A DNA stretch of 64,000 nucleotides from Escherichia coli. Lineage in GTDB: Bacteria; Pseudomonadota; Gammaproteobacteria; Enterobacterales; Enterobacteriaceae. Below the pieces are notes generated by a model. That model was given only the letters and a program-made list of their open reading frames with translations. It made no database searches and had not been told where the DNA came from. The stretch lies in NCBI RefSeq assembly GCF_024223415.1, contig NZ_CP100501.1. One strand, written 5' to 3'. The position numbers and the translations under genes were made by a program. Below are positions 20,401 through 24,599 of this stretch, piece by piece (positions within the stretch are counted from its first letter, which is position 1; each line of letters opens with the position of its first letter).

Positions 20401-21033
20401 ATGGCCTGGATAGTTGGTTTTATTTCTCAGAAAGGTGGTGTGGGCAAAAGCACTAAAGCGAGAGCGTTAGCGCGTGAAGCATCCGCCTGTGGTATCAAAA
20501 CAAAATTAGCTGATCTCGACTTGGAACAGGCAACGAGTGCTGAGTGGCATCGTAGACGTCTGTCAGCTGGTTTGTCACCGGTTGCTTCAGTTGAAGTGTT
20601 TTCAACAGCAAAGCAGGCGATAGAATCTGCCGGCGATTTTGACCTTCTGATTCTTGATGGCCCTGCTCGTGCAAGTAAAGGTACTTCAGAAATTGCTAAG
20701 GTCGCCGACCTTATCGTCCAGCCAACGGGGGCCTCCCTTGACGATCTTGTCCCGGCAATTAAAGTTTTCAACGCGTTGGTAAAAGAAGGTATACCACGTT
20801 CAAAACTGGTCTTCGCTTTAAGCCGGGTAGGTACCGAAGCGGAAGAGCTGGATGCTCGTGCATATATCAGTGAAGCAGGTTATGAAACTTTATCTGGATG
20901 CCTTTTTGAGAAGCCAGCATACAGAAAAGCGATGAATTCAGGACTCGCTGTGACAGAAACACGTTATAAAGGTTTAAACGAGAGAGCTGATGAACTTATC
21001 CAGGCACTCATCGATAAGATTGGAGAAGAGTAA
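20401..21033 (+). CDS. parA: ParA-family partition ATPase (small type Ib)
   Basis: Deviant Walker A KGGVGKST at the N-terminus; 210 aa. Confidence 0.85.
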   Translation: MAWIVGFISQKGGVGKSTKARALAREASACGIKTKLADLDLEQATSAEWHRRRLSAGLSPVASVEVFSTAKQAIESAGDFDLLILDGPARASKGTSEIAKVADLIVQPTGASLDDLVPAIKVFNALVKEGIPRSKLVFALSRVGTEAEELDARAYISEAGYETLSGCLFEKPAYRKAMNSGLAVTETRYKGLNERADELIQALIDKIGEE

Positions 21034-21407
21034 TGGCTGATGCGTCAAAACTTAGAACTAAAAGAACCCGTAGTGGGTTGGGGGTACCCCCGGGCCCCGA
21101 CGAAGTGGCTACCAGCTTGAATGCGCCTGAGATAGCTCCGGCTGTCGCTGCCACTGATGTTCAGAGACAACAGGCAGACTCATCGCCAGTGCACCATGAG
21201 CCTGTGGTTACGCAAACTGTGACCGAGGTATATACCCGCCGCGATGGCCGTTCTGCCAGAAAAACAAACAGGACGCTGGCATTTGCAACACGTGTCACAC
21301 CTGCTTTCGACCAAGAGATCCGGGATATCGCAGAGCGTGAGGGGTTGAAACTGGTGGAAGTTCTGGAAAAAGCAGTTGAGGCATATAAGGAAAAACAGGG
21401 CTATTAA
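21033..21407 (+). CDS. Putative centromere-binding partner of ParA (ParG/ParB-like)
   Basis: 124-aa ORF directly after parA (ATGA overlap), followed by a second repeat block. Confidence 0.5.
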   Translation: MADASKLRTKRTRSGLGVPPGPDEVATSLNAPEIAPAVAATDVQRQQADSSPVHHEPVVTQTVTEVYTRRDGRSARKTNRTLAFATRVTPAFDQEIRDIAEREGLKLVEVLEKAVEAYKEKQGY

Positions 21408-21409
21408 TC

Positions 21410-21500
21410 CGGGATGCAGCAATCTTGCTGCATTCTTTTTTTGTGTGCAATCTTGCAGCAAGATTTATGCTAGATAAATGCTAGATTGCTGCAAGATAAA
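21410..21500. repeat. Second block of GCAATCTTGC-type repeats, upstream of stbA
   Basis: gcagcaatcttgctgcattc ... tgcaatcttgcagcaagattt ... ctagattgctgcaagataaa. Confidence 0.5.
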
Positions 21501-21645
21501 TGATATAATGCTCAAATTGAGTAGTTAACTGCCCCAGGTAAGTACGCAGCTTGAGTACTTACCTGTGGTTTATGAACGTATTTACTTAATGTGAGTAGTT
21601 ATTGGGTGAAGATTAATACTCAAATTGAGTATAAATGGAGATGGT

Positions 21646-22620
21646 ATGAGAATTTTTTGCGATGATGGTTCTACAAATGTGAAACTTGCCTGGTTTGAAG
21701 GCAAGACGCTGAAAAGTGCGGTATCAGTGAACTCTTTTCGCCATAACTGGAAAGTCGAGGGCTTAGGCAGCAGTCGTACCTATAACTATTTGCTTGATGG
21801 CCGTAAATATACCTACGACCCGGTCAGCGAAGATGCGATCAGCACGACTCATATTGAGTATCAGTACTCTGATACAAATGTGTTGGCAGTTCACCACGCA
21901 TTACTGAACAGTGGAATTGAACCCCAGGAGATCGATCTCACCGTTACGTTACCTATCAGCGAGTTTTACACGGCCGACTGCCAGAAAAATACGCTTAACA
22001 TTGAGAGAAAAATTCGCAACCTGATGCGGGAAGTCACCCTGAACAAAGGGGGAACTTTTACCATTAAAAGCGTTGAAGTGATGCCTGAATCACTCCCGGC
22101 TGTATTTACTCGCCTAGTTGCTGACAATGTTGGTCAGTACGAAAAATCATTGGTTATCGATCTCGGTGGTACAACTCTGGATGTCGGGGTTATTGTTGGC
22201 CAGTTTGAGGATGTTTCGGCTGTACATGGTAATCCTGATATTGGTGTATCAATGGTCACGAAAGCCACGCTCACTGCACTGAAAATGGCCAGCAGTGATA
22301 CCAGTCCAATGATTGCTGACGAGTTGATCAAAAACAGGAAGAACCTGGATTTTGTGGGGCAGGTTGTAAATGAGGTTTCTAAACTAAATCTGGTGCTGGA
22401 TACCATTGATACAGCGATAAATAAACTGGGCGAGCTAGTTGTTGATGATTTGCTGCAGTATCGAAACGTAAACCGCGTATATATTGTCGGAGGCGGGGCT
22501 GCACTCATTGCTGATGCTGTTCGTAAGGCATGGAACCACCTTGGCGAAAAGGTGGTTCTTATGGATGAACCTCAGACAGCGCTGGTCCAGGCTATTGCAC
22601 GCTTCAAAGCGGAGGAGTAA
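21646..22620 (+). CDS. stbA: Actin-like segregation ATPase StbA/ParM
   Basis: MRIFCDDGSTNVKLAW N-terminus (actin-fold phosphate-1 motif); start at ATG 21646 with GGAG RBS. Confidence 0.85.
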   Translation: MRIFCDDGSTNVKLAWFEGKTLKSAVSVNSFRHNWKVEGLGSSRTYNYLLDGRKYTYDPVSEDAISTTHIEYQYSDTNVLAVHHALLNSGIEPQEIDLTVTLPISEFYTADCQKNTLNIERKIRNLMREVTLNKGGTFTIKSVEVMPESLPAVFTRLVADNVGQYEKSLVIDLGGTTLDVGVIVGQFEDVSAVHGNPDIGVSMVTKATLTALKMASSDTSPMIADELIKNRKNLDFVGQVVNEVSKLNLVLDTIDTAINKLGELVVDDLLQYRNVNRVYIVGGGAALIADAVRKAWNHLGEKVVLMDEPQTALVQAIARFKAEE

Positions 22621-22623
22621 TCG

Positions 22624-23016
22624 ATGTACGACGGCGAAGAAAGGAAAAAACTTTCACTCTACCTTCACCCGGAGGACTCTGCCGATTGTCTTGCACTGGC
22701 TGAAATCGAAACTGTTCCCCGGAAAAAACGGGGGGAGTTATATCGGCAGGCTTTGATAACCGGCCTGATAATGCATCAGCTTGATGAGAGAATTCCCGCC
22801 GTGTTAACCGCGCTATTCACCAGAGAACTGAATGCGGATGAGGTCATTAGTCAGATTGCCAGGATAACAGGCTGGAAACCCTCCTCCGGTGATTTAAAAG
22901 AGGTACTGAAGGCGTTGGGAGGGCTTCAGAGTACAGTTTCACCAGAACTCTCTCAGGATGACGGTGAACAGGCCCGTCTGAAAGCGGCTAGGGTGAAGAT
23001 GCAAAAGCTAATCTAA
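22624..23016 (+). CDS. stbB: StbB/ParR-like partition adaptor
   Basis: 130-aa ORF immediately downstream of stbA. Confidence 0.6.
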   Translation: MYDGEERKKLSLYLHPEDSADCLALAEIETVPRKKRGELYRQALITGLIMHQLDERIPAVLTALFTRELNADEVISQIARITGWKPSSGDLKEVLKALGGLQSTVSPELSQDDGEQARLKAARVKMQKLI

Positions 23017-23171
23017 AAAAGTCTCGCTCCGTGAAACCTGCAAAATTTCTCGGGGTGTGCGGCTTAATTTTTAGATTTCCGCGTTTCCCGTCATTTGAGT
23101 CAATGGAGTGCTGGTTGACAGCTCCCTGCTCTGAAGGACGGGGATTCCCACATATGCAGCCAGATTTCCGG

Positions 23172-23279
23172 CTAGTGTGGTTTCAGACGTTGTTCGATTT
23201 CATTCTGTAGCGCCTGAAGTGTGCCTGATTTGAGGTTTTTTGTGCTCTGGCGGTCGAAAAGAATTTCAATGCGGATCAT
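23172..23279 (-). CDS. DinI/ImpC-like small ORF, apparently truncated (35 codons)
   Basis: MIRIEILFDRQSTKNLKSGTLQALQNEIEQRLKPH resembles the DinI N-terminus; GGGAGA RBS; LexA box just upstream. Confidence 0.35.
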   Translation of the reverse strand: MIRIEILFDRQSTKNLKSGTLQALQNEIEQRLKPH

Positions 23280-23300
23280 GTTCTCATCTCCCTTTTATTT

Positions 23301-23320
23301 TACTGTGTATATATACAGTA
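23301..23320. promoter_or_regulatory. LexA (SOS) box
   Basis: TACTGTGTATATATACAGTA, one mismatch from the CTGT-N8-ACAG consensus palindrome. Confidence 0.65.
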
Positions 23321-23672
23321 TTCTAATAACTGAATCCACACACAGTCAAATGTCATTGTTGTGACTAAAAAACGCTCAATTCTCTGAGAGTGTGGCTGTA
23401 TGCCTGCTGTGGACTGCTGTGTCCAGCTTATCCACAGCATTTTGTGCACGGTTCTGTGGACAAAATACCTGGTTACCCAGGCCGTGCCGGCACGTTAACC
23501 GGGCTGCATCCGATGCAAGTGTGTCGCTGTCGCCGGCCTTCTCACCCGGTCACGTTTCGTCGTTCCTCCTCCACGAGCTGCGGCTTCGGGGCCGCACCTG
23601 CATTCGTATGCGGTCGCCCGGTTACAGGTGCGGCACGGCCTGATGGAGGCCGCATGTGAGAGGAGAATTCCC

Positions 23673-24599
23673 ATGCCAAACTGGTGCTCAAATCGTATGT
23701 ATTTTTCTGGTGAACCGGCACAGATTGCTGAGATTAAACGACTGGCCAGCGGTGCAGTCACACCGTTTTATCGCCGCGCCACAAATGAAGGTATTCAGCT
23801 GTTTCTGGCCGGAAGTGCCGGACTTCTGCAGACCACTGAAGATGTGCGGTTTGAACCATGTCCCGGACTGACGGCTGCCGGACGTGGCGTTGTATCGCCG
23901 GAGAATATCGCGTTCACCCGCTGGCTGACATACCTGCAGGACGGTGTACTGCTGGATGAGCAAAACTGCCTGATGCTGCATGAACTCTGGCTGCAGAGCG
24001 GTACTGGACAGCGTCGCTGGGAAGGATTACCGGACGATGTCAGGGATACCATCACCGCACTTTTCACCGCAAAAAGAGGTGACTGGTGTGGCTTCTGGAG
24101 TAACGAAGATGTATCGGTGTGGTGGAACCGTCTGTGTGACAACGTACTGCCGGAAAAAACCATGCCGTTTGACCTGCTGACGGTTCTGCCCACCCGCCTG
24201 GATGTTGAAGTGAATGGCTTTAACGGTGGTGTTCTGAACGGTGTTCCTTCTGCATATCACTGGTATACGGAACGGTATGGCGTGAAGTGGCCTGTGGGGT
24301 ATGAGGTGAATATCAGTAATCAGGGAGACAACTTCATTAAGGTGGATTTCGACACGCCGTGGTGTCAGCCGGAAAGCGACGTTATTGCAGAATTAAGCCG
24401 CCGTTTCAGCTGCACGCTGGAGCACTGGTATGCCGAACAGGGCTGTGATTTCTGTGGCTGGCAGTTGTATGAGCGCGGAGAGCTCGTTGATGTGCTGTGG
24501 GGGGAACTGGAATGGTCTTCCCCGACAGATGACGATGAGCTGCCGGAAGTCACCGGACCTGCGTGGATAGTCGACAATGTGGCGCATTATGGCGGATGA
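23673..24599 (+). CDS. Hypothetical leading-region protein
   Basis: Start MPNWCSNRMYF at ATG 23673 with GAGAGGAG RBS; conserved-looking, function unknown. Confidence 0.6.
   Translation: MPNWCSNRMYFSGEPAQIAEIKRLASGAVTPFYRRATNEGIQLFLAGSAGLLQTTEDVRFEPCPGLTAAGRGVVSPENIAFTRWLTYLQDGVLLDEQNCLMLHELWLQSGTGQRRWEGLPDDVRDTITALFTAKRGDWCGFWSNEDVSVWWNRLCDNVLPEKTMPFDLLTVLPTRLDVEVNGFNGGVLNGVPSAYHWYTERYGVKWPVGYEVNISNQGDNFIKVDFDTPWCQPESDVIAELSRRFSCTLEHWYAEQGCDFCGWQLYERGELVDVLWGELEWSSPTDDDELPEVTGPAWIVDNVAHYGG

What the first reader, a model, noticed from the sequence alone, without database searches (positions are those of the whole stretch)
23172..23320. Near-consensus LexA box driving a 35-codon DinI/ImpC-like stub
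TACTGTGTATATATACAGTA (23301..23320) is one mismatch from the LexA consensus and sits about 22 bp upstream of a minus-strand ORF with a good RBS that encodes MIRIEILFDRQSTKNLKSGTLQALQNEIEQRLKPH. This resembles the first about 35 residues of DinI-type SOS regulators and then stops. It looks like the promoter and 5' end of an imp-type (impCAB) operon whose remainder is deleted; the SOS-regulated promoter survives.
Basis: partly seen in the sequence, partly recalled or inferred. Interest (0 to 1): 0.4.

Follow-up and report, generated by a model that had tools for sequence, protein, structure and literature searches.

The report
Decayed remnant of impCAB SOS operon
This is the leftover promoter, LexA operator and first 42 codons of a plasmid SOS mutagenesis operon (impCAB) whose other ~1.8 kb is gone; it is an ordinary gene relic found in about 185 sequenced plasmids and is still decaying.

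Summary
A sigma-70 promoter (-35 TTGACT, -10 TAGAAT), a LexA box one mismatch from consensus (23301-23320), a second weak box (23328-23347), a GGGAG ribosome-binding site and a 35-codon ORF (23172-23279, minus strand) all match the 5' end of impCAB in I-complex and IncF plasmids. The ORF is 35/35 identical to the ImpC N-terminus. Intact loci read DUF1281 <- | box -> impC-impA-impB | <- stbB <- parM, and the window keeps both flanks.

One correction: the ORF does not stop at the deletion edge. It stops at a TAC->TAG change in codon 36. impC homology runs six more codons to a junction at about 23151-23156, followed by 135 bp of unrelated sequence.

The same junction occurs in 185-186 PLSDB plasmids and 14 metagenome contigs, where the usual product is a 59-aa chimeric ORF. 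The TAG allele is a minority: 2 PLSDB plasmids, both EAEC pAA-type.

Stub alleles show independent nonsense and frameshift mutations, -10 changes and 2-bp operator deletions. None of these appeared in 12 sampled intact loci.

Best explanation: a non-functional relic. Its promoter is probably still LexA-repressed and now transcribes antisense toward stbB. Already known, low interest.

The parts
23344..23349 (-). -35 hexamer TTGACT of the imp promoter
   Evidence: Promoter scan. Identical in all 12 intact and 16 stub alleles aligned.
23328..23347 (+). Second, weak LexA-box-like site AACTGAATCCACACACAGTC, overlapping the -35 hexamer and spacer
   Evidence: Exact match to the pTF2 'impCAB -48' site, heterology index 13.49 (PMC12211044).
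23320..23325 (-). -10 hexamer TAGAAT
   Evidence: Its last base is the first base of the LexA box.
23301..23320 (-). Main LexA (SOS) box TACTGTATATATACACAGTA, CTG-N10-CAG, one mismatch from consensus
   Evidence: Same position (-21 from the ATG) as the pTF2 impCAB box with heterology index 1.60.
23288..23292 (-). Ribosome-binding site GGGAG, 8 nt upstream of the ATG
   Evidence: Read from the sequence. Conserved in intact impC loci.
23172..23279 (-). 35-codon ORF plus stop, equal to impC codons 1-35
   Evidence: 35/35 identical to the ImpC N-terminus. No Pfam hit on its own.
23172..23174 (-). Nonsense codon TAG, derived from TAC (Tyr36) by a C->G change at window 23172
   Evidence: Alignments. 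All intact alleles have TAC or TCC here, and most stub alleles have TAC.
23152..23171 (-). Residual impC sequence (codons 37 to 42/43) lying beyond the stop
   Evidence: blastn homology to intact loci runs down to window 23152. Alignment.
23151..23156 (.). Deletion or replacement junction. Homology is unambiguous to impC nt 124 (23156) and possible up to nt 128 (23152).
   Evidence: The identical junction is present in 185-186 PLSDB plasmids and 14 metagenome contigs.
23017..23151 (.). 135 bp between the stbB stop and the junction, not derived from IncI1-type impAB or its downstream DNA. It contains a 52-bp conserved island at 23031-23082.
   Evidence: Local alignment scores to L002/L003 fall within the shuffle range. 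The island is about 90% identical to a site in Klebsiella plasmids.
22624..23016 (+). stbB-type plasmid partitioning/stability gene, convergent with the stub
   Evidence: Annotated in homologous records.
23673..24599 (+). DUF1281 (yfaB-type) leading-region gene, divergent from the imp promoter. PGAP places its start at 23697.

Best explanation
The segment is an inactive relic of the plasmid impCAB operon, which encodes a DinI-like regulator plus a UmuD'2C-like translesion polymerase. One ancestral event removed everything from impC codon 42/43 through impA and impB, at least 1.83 kb. It joined the remaining 5' end to the 3' flank of a different stbAB partition module. Whether that was an in-situ deletion or a module replacement is unresolved. 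This left promoter, operator, ribosome-binding site and a 59-codon chimeric ORF. In the lineage of this window a later TAC->TAG change cut the ORF to 35 codons. The peptide lacks over half of the DinI fold, including the C-terminal helix, so it should have no DinI or ImpC activity. In this allele the promoter and LexA box are intact. The most likely remaining activity is therefore a LexA-repressed, SOS-inducible transcript. With no convincing terminator downstream, it would run antisense into stbB. Shown here: homology, junction, nonsense mutation, distribution and decay in sister alleles. Inferred: LexA binding, promoter activity and antisense read-through.
For: Synteny and 95.5% identity to intact loci from the DUF1281 side down to impC nt 128. 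The stub is 35/35 identical to ImpC. Intact ImpC belongs to the DinI family, while the 59-aa stub scores 17.5 bits against a 24.2 cutoff and the 35-aa stub has no hit. The same junction occurs in 185-186 plasmids and 14 metagenome contigs, which points to a single old event. Among 16-21 stub alleles there are several disabling changes: TAG in 8; -1 and +1 frameshifts in the A-run in 3; a 2-bp operator deletion (CTG-N8-CAG) in 3, on two different box backgrounds; altered -10 in 2; and a 2-bp loss in the promoter spacer in 3. None of these appeared in 12 intact alleles sampled down the similarity ranking. Nucleotide diversity (pi) in the operator is 0.153 in stubs and 0.052 in intact loci. The homologous operator and promoter are SOS-induced in pTF2 (PMC12211044). 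impCAB overexpression is toxic (PMC10286972), which gives a plausible reason for its loss. No terminator-like site lies on the minus strand between 23172 and 22900.
Against: The CTG and CAG arms of the box are kept in every stub allele, and 13 of 16 keep the N10 spacing. The -35 hexamer never varies. impC codons 1-42 are the least variable part of the stub (4% variable columns). Some continuing constraint on the promoter or 5' region therefore cannot be excluded. No expression or LexA-binding data exist for this allele. The 69 bp at 23083-23151 has no identified source, so the ancestral structure is not reconstructed.
Confidence: 0.9

Rival explanations
1. The orphan SOS promoter has been co-opted. 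On DNA damage it produces an antisense RNA across stbB and parM, linking plasmid partition or stability to the SOS response, and this is why promoter and operator persist.
For: The geometry is convergent with stbB, 156 bp away. No terminator-like site lies on the minus strand, and the hairpin after stbB is weak on that strand (dG -17, z -0.3). The -35 hexamer and the CTG/CAG arms are invariant in 16 stub alleles.
Against: Three of 16 stub alleles have lost the operator spacing and two have a weakened -10, which is not what a selected regulator would show. The same elements are equally conserved in intact loci simply by descent. There are no transcript data.
Confidence: 0.07
2. The short ORF (35 aa here, 59 aa in most relatives) encodes a functional small protein, for example a minimal RecA-modulating peptide.
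For: It has a good ribosome-binding site and an SOS promoter. Codons 1-42 are highly conserved among stub alleles. RefSeq annotates the 59-aa form as 'impC protein' or a hypothetical protein.
Against: The ORF length is not conserved: forms of 59, 35, 31 and 26 aa arise from independent nonsense and frameshift mutations. Residues 43-59 of the 59-aa form are read from unrelated DNA. Only profile positions 3-24 of 63 in the DinI model are matched. The C-terminal half that aligns with DinI residues 36-78 is absent. By established knowledge of DinI, recalled and not tested here, the C-terminal helix is the part that contacts RecA.
Confidence: 0.02
3. The palindrome and ORF are a chance co-occurrence unrelated to imp.
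For: None.
Against: No shuffle of the window produced a comparable site. There is nucleotide-level homology of 95-98% to about 2,480 impC-bearing plasmids.
Confidence: 0

Closest known systems
impCAB operon of TP110 and I-complex plasmids (Lodwick, Owen & Strike 1990; characterised in pTF2, PMC12211044, and pMS7163B, PMC10286972)
   Same: Same promoter hexamers, same two LexA-box positions (-21 and -48), same ribosome-binding site, identical first 35 codons (42 at the DNA level), and the same location between stbB and the DUF1281 (yfaB) gene in the leading region.
   Different: impC codons 43-82, impA and impB are absent. There is a premature TAG at codon 36. The adjacent stbAB module is a different allele: about 72% identical over a short stretch to the one in L003, and no blastn match to the one in L002.
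The 59-aa 'impC protein' or hypothetical protein stub annotated in pCoo, pETEC_73, IncK2 and IncF plasmids (e.g. WP_000618107.1, WP_097469859.1)
   Same: Identical junction, flanks and promoter. It is the direct sister allele. IncK2 plasmid maps use 'impC' alone as a landmark (PMC5350095).
   Different: Those alleles keep TAC at codon 36 and read through the junction to 59 aa. The window allele, shared with two EAEC pAA-type plasmids (NZ_CP010239, NZ_LT719075), stops at 35 aa.
E. coli DinI (PDB 1ghh) and Pfam PF06183
   Same: Intact ImpC aligns with DinI over residues 3-79. The stub corresponds to the N-terminal strand and first helix.
   Different: The stub covers under half of the domain and does not reach the family threshold.

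Membership tests
impCAB operon (plasmid SOS mutagenesis operon) | LexA box overlapping a sigma-70 promoter about 21 nt upstream of impC | tested here: met
   Box at 23301-23320 abuts the -10 hexamer and lies 21 nt from the ATG. Same position as in pTF2 and in 12 intact loci.
impCAB operon (plasmid SOS mutagenesis operon) | Complete impC (82-aa DinI-like protein) | tested here: not met
   Only codons 1-42 remain, with a stop at codon 36.
impCAB operon (plasmid SOS mutagenesis operon) | impA (UmuD-like) and impB (Y-family polymerase) downstream of impC | tested here: not met
   stbB follows 156 bp after the stub. The intervening 135 bp has no homology to impA, impB or their downstream DNA.
impCAB operon (plasmid SOS mutagenesis operon) | Position between stbB/parM and the DUF1281 (yfaB) gene of the leading region | tested here: met
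DinI-like family (Pfam PF06183) | Domain match above the gathering score (24.2 bits) | tested here: not met
   The 35-aa ORF has no hit at E<=10. The 59-aa sister scores 17.5 bits and intact ImpC 65 bits.
DinI-like family (Pfam PF06183) | C-terminal acidic helix | tested here: not met
   The ImpC-DinI alignment spans residues 3-79 and the stub ends at residue 35. The functional role of the helix is from recalled literature and was not tested.
LexA (SOS) operator of Enterobacteriaceae | Palindrome CTG-N10-CAG close to TACTG(TA)5CAGTA | tested here: met
   One mismatch to the consensus, unique in the window, 0 of 100 shuffles.
LexA (SOS) operator of Enterobacteriaceae | Bound by LexA and derepressed on RecA activation | not testable with these tools
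   Only indirect evidence: the homologous pTF2 site (two mismatches, heterology index 1.60) accompanies 21-fold ImpC induction in an SOS-constitutive strain.

The most novel reading that the evidence does not exclude
The orphaned, still LexA-controlled imp promoter is retained because its read-through transcript is antisense to stbB and parM, so DNA damage or conjugative entry transiently alters partition-gene expression. A related possibility is that the unusually variable centre of the operator reflects selection for different SOS induction thresholds.
Probability: 0.06. Interest if true: 0.4.

Novelty: already known. Interest (0 to 1): 0.1.

Why it matters
It matters little beyond annotation. 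It shows that this plasmid has lost its error-prone polymerase (ImpAB) and its DinI-like regulator, so it should not contribute SOS mutagenesis. The locus should be annotated as a pseudogene remnant rather than a small protein gene. The TAG allele is a handy lineage marker that links the window to EAEC pAA-type plasmids. The orphan LexA-regulated promoter facing the partition genes is a small, testable curiosity.

Tried and rejected
- Pfam on the 35-aa peptide gave no hit, so similarity had to be shown through nucleotide homology and intact ImpC.
- Rfam with permissive thresholds on 22500-24000 gave nothing.
- I tested whether the 135 bp after the junction is a diverged impB 3' end or downstream DNA of IncI1/IncF loci. 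Local alignment scores (18-23) lay within the shuffle range (mean 21, max 32), so this was rejected.
- I tested whether the 52-bp island encodes the C-terminus of a conserved small protein, since PGAP calls a 71-aa ORF over it in one Salmonella plasmid. The window has stop codons in that frame, so this was rejected.
- I looked for an ancestor plasmid carrying 23083-23151 next to anything other than impC codon 42. None turned up in PLSDB.
- I looked for the 2-bp-deleted (N8) operator among intact impC plasmids. The only ungapped 81-base match listed was the stub plasmid NZ_CP010239. This is suggestive but not exhaustive, because only 40 rows are shown.
- I did not compute a heterology index, because I could not reproduce the Lewis et al. 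matrix reliably from memory.

Full report
**Observation.**
The + strand at 23301-23320 reads TACTGTGTATATATACAGTA. On the minus strand, which is the sense strand of the adjacent ORF, this is TACTGTATATATACACAGTA, one mismatch from the LexA consensus TACTG(TA)5CAGTA. It is the only site in the 64-kb window within three mismatches of that consensus, and none of 100 dinucleotide-preserving shuffles produced one. It is also the only CTGT-N8-ACAG in the window.

The minus-strand ORF 23172-23279 encodes the stated 35 residues. GGGAG lies 8 nt before the ATG, and 21 nt separate the box from the ATG. A promoter scan places -35 TTGACT at 23349-23344 and -10 TAGAAT at 23325-23320, with an 18-nt spacer. 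The last base of the -10 hexamer is the first base of the box.

**What it is.**
Searches of PLSDB show that about 2,480 plasmids carry this 174-bp promoter and 5' segment at 95-98% identity, nearly all annotated 'DinI-like family protein'. In intact loci the order is DUF1281 gene <- | box -> impC (82 aa) - impA/umuD (145 aa) - impB (Y-family polymerase, 424 aa) | <- stbB <- parM. Examples are the IncI-gamma/K1 plasmid NC_023276 and the IncF plasmid CP088457.

The window has the same two flanks: parM 21625-22620, stbB 22624-23016, and the DUF1281 gene ending at 24599. blastn homology to the intact loci (95.5%) runs from the DUF1281 side down to window 23152, which is impC nucleotide 128, and then stops.

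The 35 residues are identical to ImpC residues 1-35. Intact ImpC is a clear DinI-family protein: Pfam PF06183 at 65 bits and E 8e-18, and E. coli DinI (PDB 1ghh) at E 7e-6 aligned over residues 3-79. The 35-aa peptide alone hits nothing.

The ORF does not end at the deletion edge. The alignments show the stop is a TAC->TAG (Tyr36) substitution, the C at window 23172. It lies inside sequence that stays homologous to impC for six more codons. Homology is unambiguous to impC nt 124 (window 23156) and possible to nt 128 (23152).

Most plasmids with the same junction keep TAC and so carry a 59-codon chimeric ORF, MIRIE...YPEIWLHMWESPSFRAGSCQPALH. RefSeq annotates it as 'impC protein' or 'hypothetical protein'. 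That 59-aa form scores only 17.5 bits on the DinI model against a cutoff of 24.2.

**Distribution.**
- 185-186 PLSDB records span the junction.
- A scan of metagenome contigs for a 27-mer across the junction found 14 more.
- Only two PLSDB records are 100% identical across the TAG. They are E. coli S50 plasmid A (which carries pet) and pAA of isolate C700-09, both enteroaggregative pAA-type.
- Of the 21 stub alleles aligned (window, 6 plasmids, 14 metagenome contigs), 8 carry the TAG.
- Over 24 kb the window is closest, at about 95%, to I-complex (IncK2/B/O-like) backbones.
- IncK2 plasmid maps in the literature use 'impC' alone as a landmark (PMC5350095).
- More than 80% of I-complex plasmids keep intact impCAB under strong purifying selection (PMC10286972). 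The window therefore belongs to the minority that lost it.

**Relic or function?**
I compared 16 stub alleles that include the promoter with 12 intact alleles taken at even steps down the similarity ranking.

The intact alleles all keep -35, -10, the 18-nt spacer, CTG-N10-CAG and an open 82-codon frame. Their boxes differ only at positions 10, 11, 14 and 19.

The stub alleles show several apparently independent disabling events:

| Change in stub alleles | Alleles |
|---|---|
| TAG nonsense at codon 36 | window, L004, L005, L009, L010, L012, L015, L018 |
| -1 frameshift in the A-run | L010, L018 |
| +1 frameshift in the A-run | L014 |
| 2-bp loss in the operator centre (CTG-N8-CAG), on two box backgrounds | L004; L010 and L018 |
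| -10 changes | TAGAGT in L001, TAGAAA in L014 |
| 2-bp loss in the promoter spacer | L011, L016, L017 |

Nucleotide diversity (pi) in the operator is 0.153 in stubs and 0.052 in intact loci. The rest of the segment gives 0.028 and 0.017. A query carrying the N8 operator found only the stub plasmid NZ_CP010239 as an ungapped match among the listed rows. This pattern is what a decaying pseudogene shows.

There are counterpoints. The -35 hexamer and the CTG/CAG arms never vary. Thirteen of 16 stubs keep N10. Codons 1-42 are the least variable part of the stub.

**How it most likely works now.**
In this allele the promoter hexamers and spacer are identical to those of intact operons, and the operator is closer to consensus (one mismatch) than the pTF2 operator (two mismatches). 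That operator has a published heterology index of 1.60, and ImpC and ImpA rise 21- and 9-fold in an SOS-constitutive strain (PMC12211044). The second weak site reported there at -48, AACTGAATCCACACACAGTC, is present exactly at 23328-23347.

I therefore infer that the promoter is still LexA-repressed and SOS-inducible. This is inferred, not shown. Its transcript would encode a 35-aa fragment lacking over half of the DinI fold.

No terminator-like site lies on the minus strand before stbB. The hairpin just after stbB is stable on the + strand (dG -24, z -2.2) but not on the minus strand (dG -17, z -0.3). The transcript would therefore probably run antisense into stbB. Whether that has any consequence is unknown.

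Loss of impCAB is easy to rationalise, because its overexpression causes a severe growth defect (PMC10286972).

**Origin of the junction.**
The 135 bp between the stbB stop and the junction (23017-23151) has no detectable similarity to impA, impB or downstream DNA of the IncI1/IncF loci. The window's stbAB is also a different allele from those beside intact impCAB. The event may have been an in-situ deletion in an unsampled ancestor, or a replacement that brought in another stbAB module with its 3' flank.

A 52-bp island (23031-23082) is about 90% identical to a site in roughly a thousand Klebsiella IncFIB-type plasmids. There it lies between sopAB and the 3' side of a umuD-umuC cluster. It does not appear to be coding. 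No PLSDB record carries 23083-23151 in any other context.

**Comparison and verdict.**
It works like, and descends from, the impCAB control region, but it is not a functional member of the impCAB or DinI families. impC is incomplete, impA and impB are absent, and the peptide fails the DinI model. The feature is already represented in databases and plasmid maps, so it is ordinary. Interest is low, at 0.1.

Noticed in passing
window 23385-23672: The ~290 nt between the imp promoter and the DUF1281 gene fold as single-stranded DNA into a long imperfect hairpin on either strand (dG -72 and -71.5 kcal/mol, z -5.4 and -5.1; main stem roughly 23476-23645). This resembles the Frpo/ssi-type single-strand promoter elements of plasmid leading regions. 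The two pAA plasmids lose homology inside it, at 23485 and 23566. Rfam has no hit.
   Followed up: partly
window 23031-23082: A 52-bp island just 3' of stbB is about 90% identical to a site in roughly 1,000 Klebsiella/Salmonella IncFIB-type plasmids. There it lies between sopAB and the 3' side of a umuD-umuC-'plasmid stabilization protein' cluster. It is not consistently coding. On the + strand it is part of a hairpin (23010-23080, dG -24, z -2.2) that may terminate stbAB.
   Followed up: partly
window 23301-23320 and homologous positions in L001-L034: The impC LexA operator is the most variable 20 bp of the locus even among intact operons (5 alleles in 12; pi 0.052 against 0.017 for the flanks). 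The CTG/CAG arms are fixed and the TA/CA/GC centre and position 19 vary. Some changes keep the palindrome (TGCTG...CAGCA). This could reflect repeat slippage, hairpin-templated repair, or tuning of the induction threshold.
   Followed up: partly
window 23673 vs 23697: RefSeq records start the DUF1281 gene at the ATG equivalent to 23697 (MYFSGEP...). An in-frame ATG at 23673 (MPNWCSNRMYF...) has GAGGAG 7 nt upstream and may be the true start.
   Followed up: no
window 23172-23174; L030 and L032: Codon 36 of impC is polymorphic: TAC in most plasmids, TCC (Ser) in two intact IncF alleles, and TAG in the window lineage.
   Followed up: no
window 20401-23016: Two partition-type modules sit side by side upstream of the stub: a ParA-family ATPase with a 124-aa partner (20401-21407), then parM/stbA and stbB (21625-23016). 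The same pairing occurs in pCoo, pETEC_73 and IncFIA/FIC plasmids.
   Followed up: no
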